A stretch of 15,106 nucleotides of DNA. Source: Corallococcus sp. CA031C (GTDB lineage: Bacteria; Myxococcota; Myxococcia; Myxococcales; Myxococcaceae). Of this stretch, positions 2,832 to 4,953 are shown one piece after another (within the stretch, counting starts at the first letter, position 1; each line of letters begins with the position of its first letter). The translations under genes were made by a program, and so were the position numbers. The stretch is taken from positions 64,001 to 79,106 of the forward strand of contig NZ_RAWH01000014.1 of NCBI RefSeq assembly GCF_003612115.1. The letters are read 5' to 3'. The notes beneath the pieces were generated by a model. The model saw nothing but the letters and a program-made list of their open reading frames with translations. It ran no database searches and had not been told where the DNA came from.

Positions 2832-3077
2832 CTACTTCACGAGATCAAACCACCACACCTCCGCCCAAGCTGTTGTCTGTTCAGTTTGAATCACGACATT
2901 CGAATTCGACGTCATCGCGGCGATCGCGAGGGCCAGCACTTCATGGTTGTGCTCCTGCTTGGCCAGGAACGGCGTCCAGTCGAATGCGCCGTCCAAGGCC
3001 TTGAGCGAGAAATGGACGCGTCCATCGCTGGAGTTGATGCCAGCCGAATTGATGAGACATCTTCCGCTGTAAGCCAT
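2832..3077 (-). CDS. Small hypothetical protein (81 aa), Trp-rich C-terminus, no signal peptide
   Basis: Very strong RBS AAGGAGGATATCG-ATG on the minus strand. Codon third positions favour G/C although local GC is only ~55%, well below the surrounding ~70%. Lies 25 nt downstream of the large hydrolase gene on the same strand. No recognisable family from sequence alone. Confidence 0.55.
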   Translation of the reverse strand: MAYSGRCLINSAGINSSDGRVHFSLKALDGAFDWTPFLAKQEHNHEVLALAIAAMTSNSNVVIQTEQTTAWAEVWWFDLVK

Positions 3078-3102
3078 CGATATCCTCCTTGTTCTGCGTC
3101 AA

Positions 3103-4893
3103 TCACCCTGGACCGCTCATCAGCAGCGGCACGAGAAACGAAACGTCCGTGCGCCTGGGCGGCCGTGGGCTCAGGAGCAGCGGCACGAGAAAGGAGACGT
3201 CGGTCCTCCTGGTGGGCTGTGGCTTGAAGAGGAACCTGGCGATCTCTCTCGCCAGGAAGGCGGGCCGCTCGACGTGGATCGAGTGCCCGGTGCGGAGCAG
3301 GAAGAGACTCTCCCCGGGCGTGTTCGCCATCAGGTTCGACAGGGTCCGGGTCGCGTCAAAGATGTTGGAGCCCTGGAAGTTGTCGTCCTGGCCCGCCGCG
3401 AGCAACTGGCGCACGGTGTTCAGTTCGTACCGCCAGGGGGTGGTGTTGTCGAAGTGATTCACGCGGTCGACGTGGCTGTAGATCAGTTGCTCGCCAGCGA
3501 GGCGCCAATGCCATTGGCGAAAATTCGCGCAATACGTCTCACGTCGTGCCAGTCGTGCCTCCCTGATATGGAATTGCCTGCAGGGGATCCAGGATTGGCT
3601 GTACCAGAACTCGGGCTGCTGGGTTCGCATGAACACAGGGTCGATGAACCTGTCGAACACCTCGGCGAAGTAGTCGGCGCGTGAGCCTGTGATTTCTGGC
3701 AGGTCCCAGTGGTCCCGGCAGCGGTCGGGTCCCTTGCGTTTGATCTCGTCCCGGATCATCGGGTCCCACACCGAGGCCGGAGACCACGACACGATGCCTG
3801 CGCCAATCCATGGCTGGGCACGCAGGTCGCGCCGCCCGAGCCGCAGTCCCAGGTTGCCTCCGAGGCTGCCGCCAATCACTCCGGCGAAGCGATCCTTGAT
3901 GGGAGTGATCCGGTCCAGCGCTTCGACAAAGGCGACCACGAAGTCCTCCTCGAAGTCGAGGATCGGGGTGCGGACCAGTTCGCCATCGAAGATGCCGCCA
4001 GGGTAGGTGGTGGCGTTGGACAGGGCGGCCCTCGTGTGCGCGAAGGTTTCCGCGTAGCCACTGTTCGGTAGGTCGAAGGAGATGACCGCGTACTTCGTAC
4101 CAATGGCGAGGCCTGCCTTGAGGAGCTCCGGGATGAGGGGGAGCGCTTCGTCCGCACTCGAGCTGTGACCGTGAAGGAACAGGATCACGCGGTGCCCGTC
4201 GGGAATGTACGGCACGGGATCCGGCGGCAGGGTGCGGGGGGCGGGCGGGGTTGTCGCCGAAGGGGCGAACGCATCGGCTGACGCGATGAAGAAGCGCGTG
4301 GTCACCGCCAGCGTCGCCGGCATCGTCCTTGGCGCGACGGTCACGCGAAGGTCGTACTGTTCGAATGGCGGTGAAGGGACATTCACCGGCCGGTGAGGCG
4401 CGTCGTCTTCGCCGGAGACGGCAATCCATCCGAGCGGTGCTCGTGCCGTCTCCTGCTTCGCGACGGGACCTCGCAGGGCCCAGGCGACGGAGTAGGCGCG
4501 GTCCAGCGCGGCGCTCACCGCGACGGCGACATCCTCGGGGGACGCCTGCACGTGTTCCGTATTGGCGAGCCGCTCGCTGGTAAGGGCCAGGAGCGTCGCG
4601 TGGCTGACCGTTGCGCGCTGGAACTCGGCATAGGCCGCTCGGCCCGTCACCGAGAGGTCGGCCAGTGCGTTTCCCAGCTCGGGTCCGAGCAGGTAATGGG
4701 CGACAGCCGAACGCGTGAGGATTTCGGTGGGGTTCTTCGTGCTGGCCGCGTCGCGCAGGAGCTGAACCAGCCGGGACTCGGTGTTGCTTTCGACCAGGGC
4801 CGACGGAGGTTCGATGAAGCCTGGCGTCGGCGCCAACTGCATGCAGGGATTGTTGCCCTCGTCAGGCGGTTGGACCGCCGGGGTCTCCCTCAT
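3103..4893 (-). CDS. Large two-domain alpha/beta hydrolase (serine hydrolase; unknown ~250-aa N-terminal domain) with repeated C-terminal tail
   Basis: Alpha/beta-hydrolase signatures are in canonical order. These are the HG oxyanion motif (VILFLHGHSS), the nucleophile elbow GGSLGGNLG and the C-terminal catalytic His motif (RTGHSIHVERPAFLAREIARFL). GC3 is high throughout. Start is uncertain: ATG 4893 is preceded by GGAGG 6 nt upstream, ATG 4908 and GTG 4950 are also in frame, and the ORF track uses 4950. Confidence 0.75.
   Translation of the reverse strand: MRETPAVQPPDEGNNPCMQLAPTPGFIEPPSALVESNTESRLVQLLRDAASTKNPTEILTRSAVAHYLLGPELGNALADLSVTGRAAYAEFQRATVSHATLLALTSERLANTEHVQASPEDVAVAVSAALDRAYSVAWALRGPVAKQETARAPLGWIAVSGEDDAPHRPVNVPSPPFEQYDLRVTVAPRTMPATLAVTTRFFIASADAFAPSATTPPAPRTLPPDPVPYIPDGHRVILFLHGHSSSADEALPLIPELLKAGLAIGTKYAVISFDLPNSGYAETFAHTRAALSNATTYPGGIFDGELVRTPILDFEEDFVVAFVEALDRITPIKDRFAGVIGGSLGGNLGLRLGRRDLRAQPWIGAGIVSWSPASVWDPMIRDEIKRKGPDRCRDHWDLPEITGSRADYFAEVFDRFIDPVFMRTQQPEFWYSQSWIPCRQFHIREARLARRETYCANFRQWHWRLAGEQLIYSHVDRVNHFDNTTPWRYELNTVRQLLAAGQDDNFQGSNIFDATRTLSNLMANTPGESLFLLRTGHSIHVERPAFLAREIARFLFKPQPTRRTDVSFLVPLLLSPRPPRRTDVSFLVPLLMSGPG
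3115..3222 (-). repeat. Tandem 54-bp direct repeat (2 units, ~80% DNA identity) encoding duplicated C-terminal 18-aa motif P(R/Q)P(P/T)RRTDVSFLVPLL(M/L)S of the hydrolase
   Basis: Unit A is 3115-3168 and unit B is 3169-3222; both begin GCTCA and end GTGG. On the coding (minus) strand the two copies differ at 9 codons, 6 of them synonymous. Inside the RRTDVSFLVPLL core there are 5 synonymous and 0 non-synonymous differences. Confidence 0.75.
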
Positions 4894-4953
4894 GAAGCGC
4901 CTCCGCATCCCCGGGACGTCGATGGATGCTTTCTGAGCGCAAGGTCTCACCGG

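What the first reader, a model, noticed from the sequence alone, without database searches (positions are those of the whole stretch)
2832..4950. Candidate two-gene module: large two-domain alpha/beta hydrolase plus tightly linked low-GC small protein
A ~600-aa serine-hydrolase-type protein with an unrecognisable ~250-aa N-terminal domain is followed after 25 nt by an 81-aa ORF. The small ORF has one of the strongest Shine-Dalgarno sequences in the window (AAGGAGGA) and lies in a ~300-bp patch of ~55% GC within a ~70% GC genome. A large hydrolase followed by a tightly linked small gene of different composition fits two readings. One is an effector with a cognate small partner (immunity, chaperone or inhibitor). 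The other is an enzyme with a regulatory or adaptor subunit. The small protein has no signal peptide. I cannot place either protein in a named family from sequence alone.
Basis: partly seen in the sequence, partly recalled or inferred. Interest (0 to 1): 0.55.

Follow-up and report, generated by a model that had tools for sequence, protein, structure and literature searches.

The report
Enzyme docking tag with small partner
The hydrolase ends in two copies of a short peptide tag, and the 81-residue gene beside it encodes a small barrel protein shaped like the cell-binding subunit of Shiga or cholera toxin; tag and small gene travel together on unrelated enzymes in several phyla, which points to an undescribed plug-in docking system, possibly a new kind of two-part toxin.

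Summary
On the minus strand, a serine alpha/beta-hydrolase (3103..4893, 596 aa from the homologue-supported ATG; 615 aa from the GTG at 4950) is followed after 25 nt by an 81-aa ORF (2832..3077). That ORF has an AAGGAGGA Shine-Dalgarno sequence and about 56% GC.

The small ORF is a real gene (dN/dS 0.07-0.18). It belongs to a family of about 80-residue proteins with no Pfam or NCBIfam model. Its confident AlphaFold2 model (pLDDT 90) is an OB-fold. The best structural matches are CipA, SilF and the B subunits of AB5 toxins (Shiga, LT-II, pertussis, typhoid).

The hydrolase ends in two tandem copies of the peptide D-V-S-F-L-V-P-L-L-[LM]-S. In 9 of 10 near-clade loci examined, the small gene lies beside an enzyme carrying 1-3 such C-terminal tags. 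These enzymes are this hydrolase, a DUF676-like lipase or FAD-linked oxidases. Hydrolase homologues with no tag, either fused to DUF3892 or with no tail, had no small gene nearby (2 of 2).

Small-protein subtypes do not track the catalytic domain, so an immunity or inhibitor role is rejected.

The best reading is that the tag docks the enzyme onto an oligomeric OB-fold partner, an AB-toxin-like two-part enzyme. No signal peptides are present. The interaction itself is inferred, not shown.

The parts
3103..4893 (-). Alpha/beta-hydrolase gene ('A' component), 596 aa from the ATG at 4893. The longest ORF reaches the GTG at 4950, giving 615 aa.
4204..4893 (-). N-terminal ~230-aa domain: a helical bundle (aa 44-154) plus a beta-hairpin (aa 179-205). 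It is family-specific and packs onto the hydrolase core.
3226..4203 (-). Alpha/beta-hydrolase catalytic core with a cap insertion. The Ser343-Asp504-His537 triad and the HG oxyanion motif (H241 G242) are invariant.
3856..3873 (-). Nucleophile elbow G-G-S-L-G-G (aa 341-346, Ser343).
   Evidence: Read directly from the sequence. Invariant in 84 homologues.
3169..3201 (-). C-terminal tag, copy 1: D-V-S-F-L-V-P-L-L-L-S (aa 565-575), preceded by RRT.
   Evidence: Translation. Six-frame regex scan. Tag consensus built from 34 proteins. Lies in the low-pLDDT flexible tail and is modelled as a short helix.
3115..3147 (-). C-terminal tag, copy 2: D-V-S-F-L-V-P-L-L-M-S (aa 583-593), followed by GPG and the stop codon.
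   Evidence: Same sources as copy 1. The two copies differ at synonymous sites (GTC TCC / GTT TCG; CTC CTG / CTG ATG), so the peptide rather than the DNA repeat is conserved.
3078..3102 (-). 25-nt intergenic spacer carrying the Shine-Dalgarno sequence AAGGAGGA (3083..3090), 5 nt before the ATG of the small gene. No terminator lies between the genes.
2832..3077 (-). Small 81-aa OB-fold protein ('B' component; WP_120536663.1, annotated as a hypothetical protein).

Best explanation
This is a two-component enzyme module built on a peptide tag and a docking protein.

**Shown.** The 596-aa protein is a serine alpha/beta-hydrolase with an intact catalytic triad. Its flexible C-terminal tail carries two copies of an 11-residue tag, with the consensus [RK]-R-[TP]-D-[IVL]-S-[FY]-L-x-P-L-L-L-[SG]. 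The 81-aa gene 25 nt downstream encodes a small protein with a confidently predicted OB-fold. Its most conserved element is the Ala-rich helix (E-x-L-A-x-A-L-A-A) between strands 3 and 4. Tag and small gene co-occur on unrelated enzymes.

**Inferred, step 1.** The small protein binds the tag non-covalently. Any enzyme that acquires the tag becomes its client.

**Inferred, step 2 (less certain).** The small protein forms a ring-shaped homo-oligomer with its helices at the centre, as AB5 B pentamers and the CipA tetramer do. The enzyme tail then either inserts along that axis or wraps adjacent subunits. This would give an AB-toxin-like holoenzyme in which the small subunit supplies multivalent binding to a target surface. 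In sister hydrolases that position is occupied by fused lectin, Ig-like or DUF3892 domains instead.

**Export.** Neither protein has a signal peptide. Assembly would therefore be cytoplasmic, and any release would have to be by lysis or a non-classical route.
For: 1. **Pair conservation across phyla.** The hydrolase plus small-gene pair occurs in Corallococcus praedator, in an Actinomycetales MAG (L007), and in metagenome contigs L001, L008, L010 and L011.
2. **Tag distribution.** Tags occur in 1-3 tandem copies (occasionally a diverged fourth) at the C-termini of 34 proteins and are nearly invariant in sequence.
3. **Tags on unrelated enzymes beside a small-gene homologue.** Examples are a 1165-aa propeller plus FAD_binding_4/ALO oxidase (L002), FAD oxidases of 909 and 591 aa (L019 and L020), and a 409-aa DUF676-like lipase (L011).
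4. **Tally.** In 9 of 10 near-clade small-gene loci, a tagged enzyme is adjacent. The tenth, L013, is a frameshift-ridden assembly. A family HMM finds no small gene within 5 kb of a DUF3892-fused hydrolase (L022) or a tail-less hydrolase (L023).
5. **Subtypes cut across enzyme types.** The three small-protein subtypes do not follow enzyme type and are incongruent with hydrolase similarity.
7. **Match to AB5 architecture.** AB5 toxins are defined by a C-terminal helix of the A subunit inserted into a pore lined by one helix from each OB-fold B subunit (PMC11610972). CipA, another top hit, forms a tetramer with its helices bundled on the axis (PMC9530169).
8. **Tail properties.** The hydrolase tail has low pLDDT (55-70), and each tag is modelled as a short helix.
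9. **Alternative tails.** Sister hydrolases carry PLL-like DUF346 lectin propellers, B_lectin or Ig-like domains at the same position (PMC7778903).
10. **Operon-like layout.** The genes are 25 nt apart, with a strong Shine-Dalgarno sequence and no terminator between them.
Against: - No physical interaction was tested or modelled.
- There is no sequence similarity to any AB5 B-subunit family or any PDB chain.
- Neither protein has a Sec signal, and the B-subunit disulfide pair is absent (only one conserved Cys). Both are unlike classical AB5 toxins.
- Tandem tags have no counterpart in AB5 toxins.
- One tagged oxidase (L002) already has its own lectin-like propeller, so the small protein is not simply a substitute lectin.
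- Most hydrolase homologues carry DUF3892, which has been proposed to be an intracellular RNA- or ribosome-sensing fold (bioRxiv 10.1101/2025.01.14.632903). That would argue for a cytoplasmic rather than extracellular role for the enzyme family.
- Gene order is reversed (small gene first) in L008, L019 and L020.
Confidence: 0.55

Rival explanations
1. The small protein is a chaperone or adaptor that recognises the C-terminal tag as a targeting signal or degron. It would either escort tagged enzymes to an export or packaging route, or cap or expose a hydrophobic C-terminal degron to control their stability, in the way SspB handles the SsrA tag. On this view it is not a permanent subunit of the active enzyme.
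For: - The link is between the tag and the small protein, whatever the catalytic domain.
- The tags are hydrophobic, lie at the C-terminus and sit in a disordered tail.
- The clients are degradative or oxidative enzymes without signal peptides (esterase, lipase, FAD oxidases; possibly M6 and S8 peptidases in the distant branch), which a cell might need to export or keep in check.
- Some distant family members carry signal peptides themselves.
Against: - No secretion-system, protease or packaging genes are conserved next to the module. The flanks differ in every locus.
- The module occurs in Myxococcota, Actinomycetota, a cyanobacterium-like contig and possibly Alphaproteobacteria. As far as I know, no single specialised export machine is common to all these groups (general knowledge, not tested).
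- Tandem repetition of a signal is unusual for secretion signals or degrons.
Confidence: 0.2
2. The small protein self-assembles into an intracellular scaffold or crystalline inclusion, as Photorhabdus CipA does. The tags load enzymes onto or into it, creating a storage or clustering body for enzymes.
For: - CipA is an OB-fold protein that assembles from tetramers into in-cell crystals (PMC9530169).
- Engineered Cip fusions cluster enzymes (abstract of bioRxiv 10.64898/2026.05.10.724141, seen).
- Neither partner has a signal peptide.
- Multiple tags per enzyme would favour multivalent network formation.
Against: - Sequence identity to CipA is only 15%, and the small protein lacks an N-terminal arm like the one that stabilises the CipA lattice.
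- There is no evidence of very high expression or of inclusions.
- The similarity is at the level of a common fold.
Confidence: 0.1
3. There is no direct interaction. The tag is a hydrophobic membrane or lipid anchor, or another autonomous motif, on the enzymes. The small OB-fold protein has an independent function, such as binding a metal, an oligosaccharide or a nucleic acid, in the same pathway.
For: - The tag core (F-L-x-P-L-L-L) is strongly hydrophobic.
- SilF/CusF-type metallochaperones and SSB-type proteins are also among the structural matches.
- Co-occurrence alone does not prove contact.
Against: - A pathway link would be expected to follow the catalytic activity. Instead the small gene follows the tag across at least three unrelated enzyme types and is absent beside untagged homologues.
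- The tag is sequence-specific (invariant D, S, P and LLL), not merely hydrophobic.
- The CusF/SilF family binds metal through Met and His residues and a Trp (general knowledge). No such conserved set is evident in the family alignment. The conserved residues are C7, G13, L25, F32, E46, L48, A49, A51 and A54.
Confidence: 0.08
4. This is a toxin-immunity or enzyme-inhibitor pair: the small protein neutralises the hydrolase in the producer cell.
For: Tight linkage of a small gene downstream of a large hydrolase, lower GC than the genome, and patchy distribution suggesting horizontal transfer.
Against: - The same small-protein subtype pairs with unrelated catalytic folds.
- One small gene follows two different tagged enzymes in L011.
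- Small-protein divergence is uncoupled from hydrolase divergence (79% against 38% identity).
- Closely related hydrolases without tags lack the small gene altogether.
- Neither protein has a PADLOC match.
Confidence: 0.03

Closest known systems
AB5 toxins (Shiga, cholera/LT, pertussis, subtilase, typhoid toxin): an A enzyme plus an OB-fold B pentamer
   Same: - A large enzyme gene lies next to a gene for a roughly 70-100-residue OB-fold protein.
- The enzyme has a C-terminal extension available for docking.
- The most conserved part of the small protein is the helix that lines the pore in B pentamers.
- Sister enzymes carry lectin domains where this one carries tags, in keeping with a role in binding a target surface.
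   Different: - There is no detectable sequence similarity.
- Neither subunit has a Sec signal peptide, and there is no conserved disulfide pair.
- The tail is a tandem array of 1-3 short Pro-containing tags rather than one long A2 helix.
- The A components are esterase/lipase-type hydrolases and FAD oxidases, not ADP-ribosyltransferases or RNA N-glycosidases.
- The hosts are environmental Myxococcota, Actinomycetota and cyanobacteria.
- Gene order is sometimes B then A.
- Pentamer formation is untested.
CipA and CipB crystalline inclusion proteins of Photorhabdus
   Different: - Identity is only 15%.
- Cip proteins are not known to recognise a peptide tag. Enzymes are attached to them by genetic fusion.
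- No inclusion bodies are known for this family.
Cargo-loading peptides of encapsulins and encapsulation peptides of bacterial microcompartments
   Same: A short conserved terminal peptide is shared by unrelated enzymes and is encoded next to the gene for the self-assembling protein that recognises it. This is the same 'tag defines the client' logic.
   Different: The partner here is an 81-aa OB-fold protein, not an HK97-fold encapsulin or a BMC-H/P shell protein. The tag sequence is unrelated and often occurs in tandem.
Cohesin-dockerin pairs of cellulosomes
   Same: Modular, non-covalent docking of diverse enzymes, through a C-terminal module with internal duplication, onto a small beta-rich partner.
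   Different: A dockerin is a roughly 70-aa Ca-binding domain and a cohesin a roughly 150-aa jelly roll, both secreted. Here the docking element is an 11-residue linear motif, and nothing carries a signal peptide.
SSB C-terminal tip (D-D-D-I-P-F) binding to partner proteins and to OB folds
   Same: An acidic-then-hydrophobic short linear motif (D-I-S-F.. against D-I-P-F) sits on a flexible tail, and an OB-fold protein is the candidate receptor. RecO in complex with the SSB C-terminus is among the structural hits.
   Different: The SSB tip must be the extreme C-terminus, and its role is in DNA metabolism. The resemblance is recalled from memory and was not tested.

Membership tests
AB5 toxin | The B subunit is a small OB-fold protein. 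| tested here: met
AB5 toxin | B subunits form a pentameric ring whose pore is lined by one helix per monomer. | not testable with these tools
   No multimer prediction was available. The only indirect point is that the helix (aa 46-54) is the most conserved segment of the family.
AB5 toxin | A C-terminal alpha-helix of the A subunit inserts into the B pore. | tested here: inconclusive
   The hydrolase has a 40-aa flexible C-terminal tail with two tags, modelled as short helices at low confidence (pLDDT 55-70).
AB5 toxin | Both subunits are exported by Sec signal peptides and assemble in the periplasm. | tested here: not met
   Inspection of the N-termini shows no hydrophobic signal-like stretch (MRETPAVQPPDEGNNPC..; MAYSGRCLINSAG..). 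In the models, the first residues of both proteins are part of the confidently folded body. No signal-peptide predictor was run.
AB5 toxin | Sequence membership in a known B-subunit family (SLT_beta, Enterotoxin_b, pertussis S2-S5, or the SubB/PltB type). | tested here: not met
   Scanning all 103 family members against Pfam matched no B-subunit family. A profile search of PDB sequences gave 0 hits at E <= 10.
AB5 toxin | Adjacent, co-oriented A and B genes. | tested here: met
   The gap is 25 nt, with a Shine-Dalgarno sequence and no terminator. Adjacency is conserved in 9 loci, although the order is B then A in three of them.
Toxin-immunity (or enzyme-inhibitor) pair | The small protein is specific to, and co-diversifies with, the catalytic domain it neutralises. 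| tested here: not met
   Small-protein subtypes cut across the hydrolase, FAD oxidase and lipase partners. Hydrolases are 79% identical where small proteins are 38% identical (window against L011). One small gene follows two different enzymes in L011.
DUF3892 (PF13031) as a split-off domain | Profile similarity between the small protein and the DUF3892 tails fused to sister hydrolases. | tested here: not met
   hhalign of the 103-sequence small-protein alignment against 51 DUF3892 tails gave probability 0.3%. There was no Pfam hit at E <= 10.
Encapsulin or BMC cargo-targeting systems | The partner is an HK97-fold encapsulin or a BMC-H/BMC-P shell protein. | tested here: not met
   The partner is 81 aa, has an OB-fold and has no Pfam hit. 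Only the tag logic is shared.
Alpha/beta-hydrolase superfamily (the large protein) | Alpha/beta-hydrolase fold with a nucleophile elbow (GxSxG), an acid and a His triad, and an oxyanion HG motif. | tested here: met

The most novel reading that the evidence does not exclude
These modules are a previously unrecognised class of AB-type toxins, or surface-targeted enzymes, in environmental and predatory bacteria. An OB-fold ring related in shape to Shiga and cholera toxin B subunits would act as a universal delivery or binding platform. Any enzyme (esterase, lipase, H2O2-producing oxidase, protease) would become a payload simply by acquiring a short C-terminal D-I-S-F-L-x-P-L-L-L tag. Assembly would be in the cytoplasm, with release without Sec export.
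Probability: 0.3. Interest if true: 0.85.

Novelty: new variant of a known kind. Interest (0 to 1): 0.7.

Why it matters
If the tag really docks onto the small OB-fold protein, this is a natural, portable 11-residue tag and 81-residue receptor pair that evolution has moved between unrelated enzymes.

- It would assign a function to a family of about 80-residue 'hypothetical' proteins: 476 clusters at 90% identity, with no Pfam model.
- It would explain a recurrent C-terminal repeat on many annotated 'alpha/beta fold hydrolases'.
- If the ring model holds, it would extend the AB5 architecture beyond Sec-exported toxins of pathogens to cytoplasmically assembled enzyme complexes in Myxococcota, Actinomycetota and cyanobacteria, with new payload chemistries.
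- Such a pair could also be useful as a protein-engineering docking system.

Tried and rejected
- **Split DUF3892.** I asked whether the small ORF is a detached copy of the DUF3892 domain fused to most sister hydrolases. Rejected: hhalign probability 0.3%, and the topology differs.
- **Sequence-level links for the small protein.** Pfam, NCBIfam, PADLOC and PDB sequence searches found nothing.
- **Modelling the complex.** No natural fusion of tag and small domain was found among 160 family members.
- **P0159.** This 1662-aa protein with five apparent 'copies' of the small domain is a spurious hit to He_PIG/Ig repeats.
- **Phage or plasmid carriage.** Neither protein was found in IMG/VR contigs. 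The window's hydrolase and small protein have no match in PLSDB plasmids. One distant small-family member lies on a Sinorhizobium megaplasmid.
- **Metagenome scan.** A scan with the family alignment returned only five distant, low-GC loci. Their small proteins carry signal peptides and their contexts are not clearly comparable.
- **Literature.** The four full tag strings (SFLVPLLL, SFLTPLLL, SFLAPLLL, SYLVPLLL) occur in no paper of the library.
- **AFDB50 fold search.** Unavailable.
- **Resemblance to the FtsZ C-terminal peptide (D-I-P-x-F-L) or the SSB tip (D-I-P-F).** Considered from memory only and not pursued. The register differs, and there is no supporting context.
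Full report
**1. The observation**

The window is about 68-70% GC. Two co-oriented ORFs lie on the minus strand: 3103..4950 (615 aa from the first GTG) and 2832..3077 (81 aa, ATG start). They are separated by 25 nt containing AAGGAGGA, 5 nt before the ATG.

GC falls to 0.567 over 2851-3150. The small ORF is 0.557 GC and the hydrolase 0.658, against 0.715 for both flanking genes.

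Codon-position GC supports both ORFs as genes. Homologues of the large protein all start at the equivalent of the internal ATG at 4893 (MRETPAV..), which has GGAGG 6 nt upstream. The protein is therefore most likely 596 aa.

Pfam finds only a marginal Abhydrolase_1 match in the large protein and nothing in its first ~235 residues or in the small protein. NCBIfam and PADLOC add nothing.

The sequence belongs to Corallococcus praedator and related strains. The small protein is WP_120536663.1, annotated as a hypothetical protein.

**2. The small ORF is a real, conserved gene**

- It has close homologues (69-79% identity) in metagenomes and in an Actinomycetales MAG.
- Pairwise dN/dS values are 0.07-0.18.
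- An exhaustive profile search of 1.84 billion representatives finds 44 clusters, essentially all standalone proteins of 78-90 aa.
- A profile search of the 5.8-billion-protein set finds 476 clusters, none with a Pfam domain or an informative name.
- Scanning all 103 aligned members against Pfam gives no consistent family.
- A profile search of PDB sequences gives nothing.

**3. The hydrolase**

The large protein belongs to a well-conserved family, about 50% identical across hundreds of metagenomic and MAG proteins. The following are invariant:
- the H241-G242 oxyanion motif;
- the G-G-S343-L-G-G nucleophile elbow;
- D504 and H537.

AlphaFold2 with 84 homologues gives one compact body (pLDDT 93.3, pTM 0.91). 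An N-terminal helical domain (aa 44-154) and a beta-hairpin pack onto a canonical alpha/beta-hydrolase core. The last 40 residues are a low-confidence tail.

**4.

The tail is ..KPQPT-RRT-DVSFLVPLLLS-PRPP-RRT-DVSFLVPLLMS-GPG*. It contains two copies of an 11-residue motif. The copies differ at synonymous positions, so it is the peptide that is conserved.

Among the 120 best hydrolase homologues, the C-terminal tails fall into classes:
- 1-3 (occasionally 4) tandem copies of this motif;
- a fused DUF3892 domain (the majority);
- DUF346 propellers, which are PLL-like lectins according to PMC7778903;
- B_lectin domains;
- Ig-like domains;
- no tail at all.

From 34 tagged proteins the consensus is [RK]-R-[TP]-D-[IVL]-S-[FY]-L-x-P-L-L-L-[SG]. 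D, S, P and LLL are almost invariant. The last copy usually ends 0-5 residues before the C-terminus.

**5. Tag and small gene travel together, independently of the enzyme**

| Locus | Arrangement |
|---|---|
| Window, L001, L007 | Tagged hydrolase, then small gene |
| L010 (contig rich in GCGATCGC, so probably cyanobacterial) | Tagged hydrolase, then small gene |
| L008 | Small gene, then tagged hydrolase |
| L011 | Tagged hydrolase, then a 409-aa DUF676-like lipase ending ..TNISFLAPLLLSHSRTNVSFLAPLLLNGP*, then small gene |
| L002 | 1165-aa propeller plus FAD_binding_4/ALO oxidase ending in two copies of DLSFLVPLLLSDP, then small gene |
| L019 | Small gene, then FAD oxidase ending ..TTDISYLVPLLL* |
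| L020 | Small gene, then FAD oxidase ending ..VDVSYLTSLLLSEPP.. |

That gives 9 of 10 near-clade loci. The tenth, L013, is a frameshift-ridden assembly with a fragmented FAD oxidase and no readable tag.

As negative controls, an HMM of the small family finds nothing within 5 kb of a DUF3892-fused hydrolase (L022) or a tail-less hydrolase (L023).

The tag pattern is far too specific to recur by chance. In the 15-kb window, the relaxed core pattern gives one stray six-frame match besides the two tag copies.

Flanking genes differ in every locus, and the window flanks are unrelated metabolic and regulatory genes. The conserved unit is therefore the tagged enzyme or enzymes plus the small gene.

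**6. The small protein does not co-vary with the catalytic domain**

Pairwise identities define three small-protein subtypes:
- window, L001, L007 and L002 (oxidase partner);
- L010 and L011;
- L008 (hydrolase partner), L019 (oxidase) and L020 (oxidase).

These subtypes cut across enzyme type. The window hydrolase is closest to that of L011 (79%), yet their small proteins are only 38% identical.

This result, together with one small gene serving two enzymes in L011, rules out a cognate immunity or active-site inhibitor role. It points to recognition of the shared tag.

**7. What the small protein looks like**

AlphaFold2 with 103 homologues gives pLDDT 90.3. The topology is beta(3-14), beta(21-27), beta(35-39), helix(41-56), beta(60-65), beta(72-80), which is an OB-fold.

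Foldseek independently ranks SilF first, followed by many Shiga, LT-II, pertussis and PltB B subunits. The best is Stx2e B, with TM 0.82 normalised on the target and rmsd 1.8 A. No E-value falls below 1e-3.

The most conserved stretch of the family is the helix E46-x-L-A-x-A-L-x-A54.

In AB5 toxins this helix lines the central pore that receives the C-terminal helix of the A subunit (PMC11610972). In CipA, four such helices bundle on the tetramer axis (PMC9530169).

The small protein is not a detached DUF3892 domain (hhalign probability 0.3%).

**8. Mechanism proposed**

*Shown:*
- a catalytically intact serine hydrolase with a disordered tail carrying two tags;
- an adjacent, probably translationally coupled gene for an OB-fold protein;
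- strict co-occurrence of tag and small gene across unrelated enzymes.

*Inferred:*
- The small protein binds the tag.
- By analogy with its best structural matches, it probably forms a ring-like oligomer. The tail would bind either along the axis or, given the 15-23-residue spacing between tags, across neighbouring subunits.
- Sister hydrolases carry lectin or Ig-like modules at exactly this position, and the clients are degradative or oxidative enzymes. The complex is therefore most simply read as an AB-toxin-like, surface-targeted enzyme.

I put about 0.55 on tag-mediated docking as the function of the pair, and about 0.3 on the full AB-type toxin reading.

**9. Caveats**

- No interaction was modelled or measured.
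- The OB-fold is a common fold.
- There are no signal peptides and no B-subunit disulfide pair.
- Tandem tags are unknown in AB5 toxins.
- One tagged oxidase already has a propeller.
- DUF3892, the commonest alternative tail, has been suggested to be an intracellular RNA- or ribosome-sensing fold (bioRxiv 10.1101/2025.01.14.632903). That would favour a cytoplasmic role.
- Rival readings remain open: a chaperone or degron adaptor, a CipA-like scaffold, or independent functions.

**10. Wider family (suggestive only)**

In a distant 78-aa branch, the small gene lies next to peptidases without signal peptides:
- In Ruegeria arenilitoris, the neighbour is an M6 peptidase ending ..GVYKLLLLSA*.
- On a Sinorhizobium chiapasense megaplasmid, it is an S8 subtilase ending ..AAVFELLLLH*.

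These tails resemble a degenerate single tag. Other distant, low-GC members carry signal peptides and have unclear contexts.

**11. Novelty**

Neither the small family nor the tag has a Pfam or NCBIfam model. The tag strings are absent from the searchable literature. All database names are 'hypothetical protein', 'alpha/beta fold hydrolase' or an automatic 'pimeloyl-ACP methyl ester carboxylesterase'.

I rate this as a new variant of a known kind: two-part A-B enzymes with an OB-fold B subunit, and tag-directed enzyme docking. It is not a member of any AB5 family.

Noticed in passing
window 4894-4950: The longest ORF of the hydrolase starts at the GTG at 4950, but all homologues start at the equivalent of the ATG at 4893 (GGAGG 6 nt upstream). 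The first 19 codons of the 615-aa ORF are probably not translated.
   Followed up: yes
window 3235-3256 (minus strand): A perfect 8-bp inverted repeat, CCTGGCGA-GAGAGA-TCGCCAGG, followed by a T-rich stretch. It lies inside the hydrolase coding region (..FLAREIARFLF..), just upstream of the tag-coding segment. The terminator scan flags it, but at a chance-level count (2 found, 1.5 expected).
   Followed up: partly
window 8100-9050: A second low-GC patch (0.57-0.61). It contains a 234-aa ORF (8346..9050, plus strand) with no Pfam match, just upstream of a GNAT acetyltransferase-like ORF.
   Followed up: no
window 12750-14332: A third low-GC patch (0.59-0.63). It contains a 196-aa ORF (12796..13386, plus strand) with no Pfam match, next to an RCC1-repeat beta-propeller protein (13511..14332, minus strand).
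   Followed up: no
L010 8097-8372 and 8617-13812: In this contig, probably cyanobacterial because it is rich in GCGATCGC, the small gene is followed by a truncated second copy of itself with no start codon. About 250 nt further on lies a 2631-aa Tc-toxin-like gene (SpvB, TcdB_toxin_mid and RHS domains). This is a possible toxin-island context.
   Followed up: partly
L011 6001-9387: Two different tagged enzymes in a row, the alpha/beta-hydrolase and a DUF676-like lipase, are followed by a single small gene. This suggests one partner serves several clients.
   Followed up: yes
L012 6282-6647; L024 ~6500-6800: In the distant alphaproteobacterial loci, repeats of the type (E/Q)NPPLGP..GGAG occur between the small gene and the peptidase. 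In Ruegeria they form a separate 121-aa low-complexity ORF. In Sinorhizobium they form the N-terminus of the S8 subtilase. Their function is unknown.
   Followed up: no
L014/L015 (small gene at L015 2117-2455); protein P0164: Some distant, low-GC members of the small-protein family have clear N-terminal signal peptides, so in those lineages the OB-fold protein is exported. In L015, a nearby He_PIG Ig-domain ORF ends in ..KPMPWLYLLLGE*.
   Followed up: partly
protein P0103 (997 aa, hydrolase homologue): This protein carries 3-4 tags followed by an extra hydrophobic and basic C-terminal segment (..FRFFRRLLSRLVRWIVPAR). The L020 oxidase likewise has one tag followed by a Lys/Arg-rich tail. The tag is therefore not always C-terminal.
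   Followed up: no
L007 5200-6400 and window 2850-3750: The module is lower in GC than its host both in Corallococcus and in the Actinomycetales MAG, and the small gene is 0.55-0.56 GC in three hosts. Among 185,579 GTDB representative genomes, the near-clade small gene was found in only two. This is consistent with horizontal transfer.
   Followed up: partly
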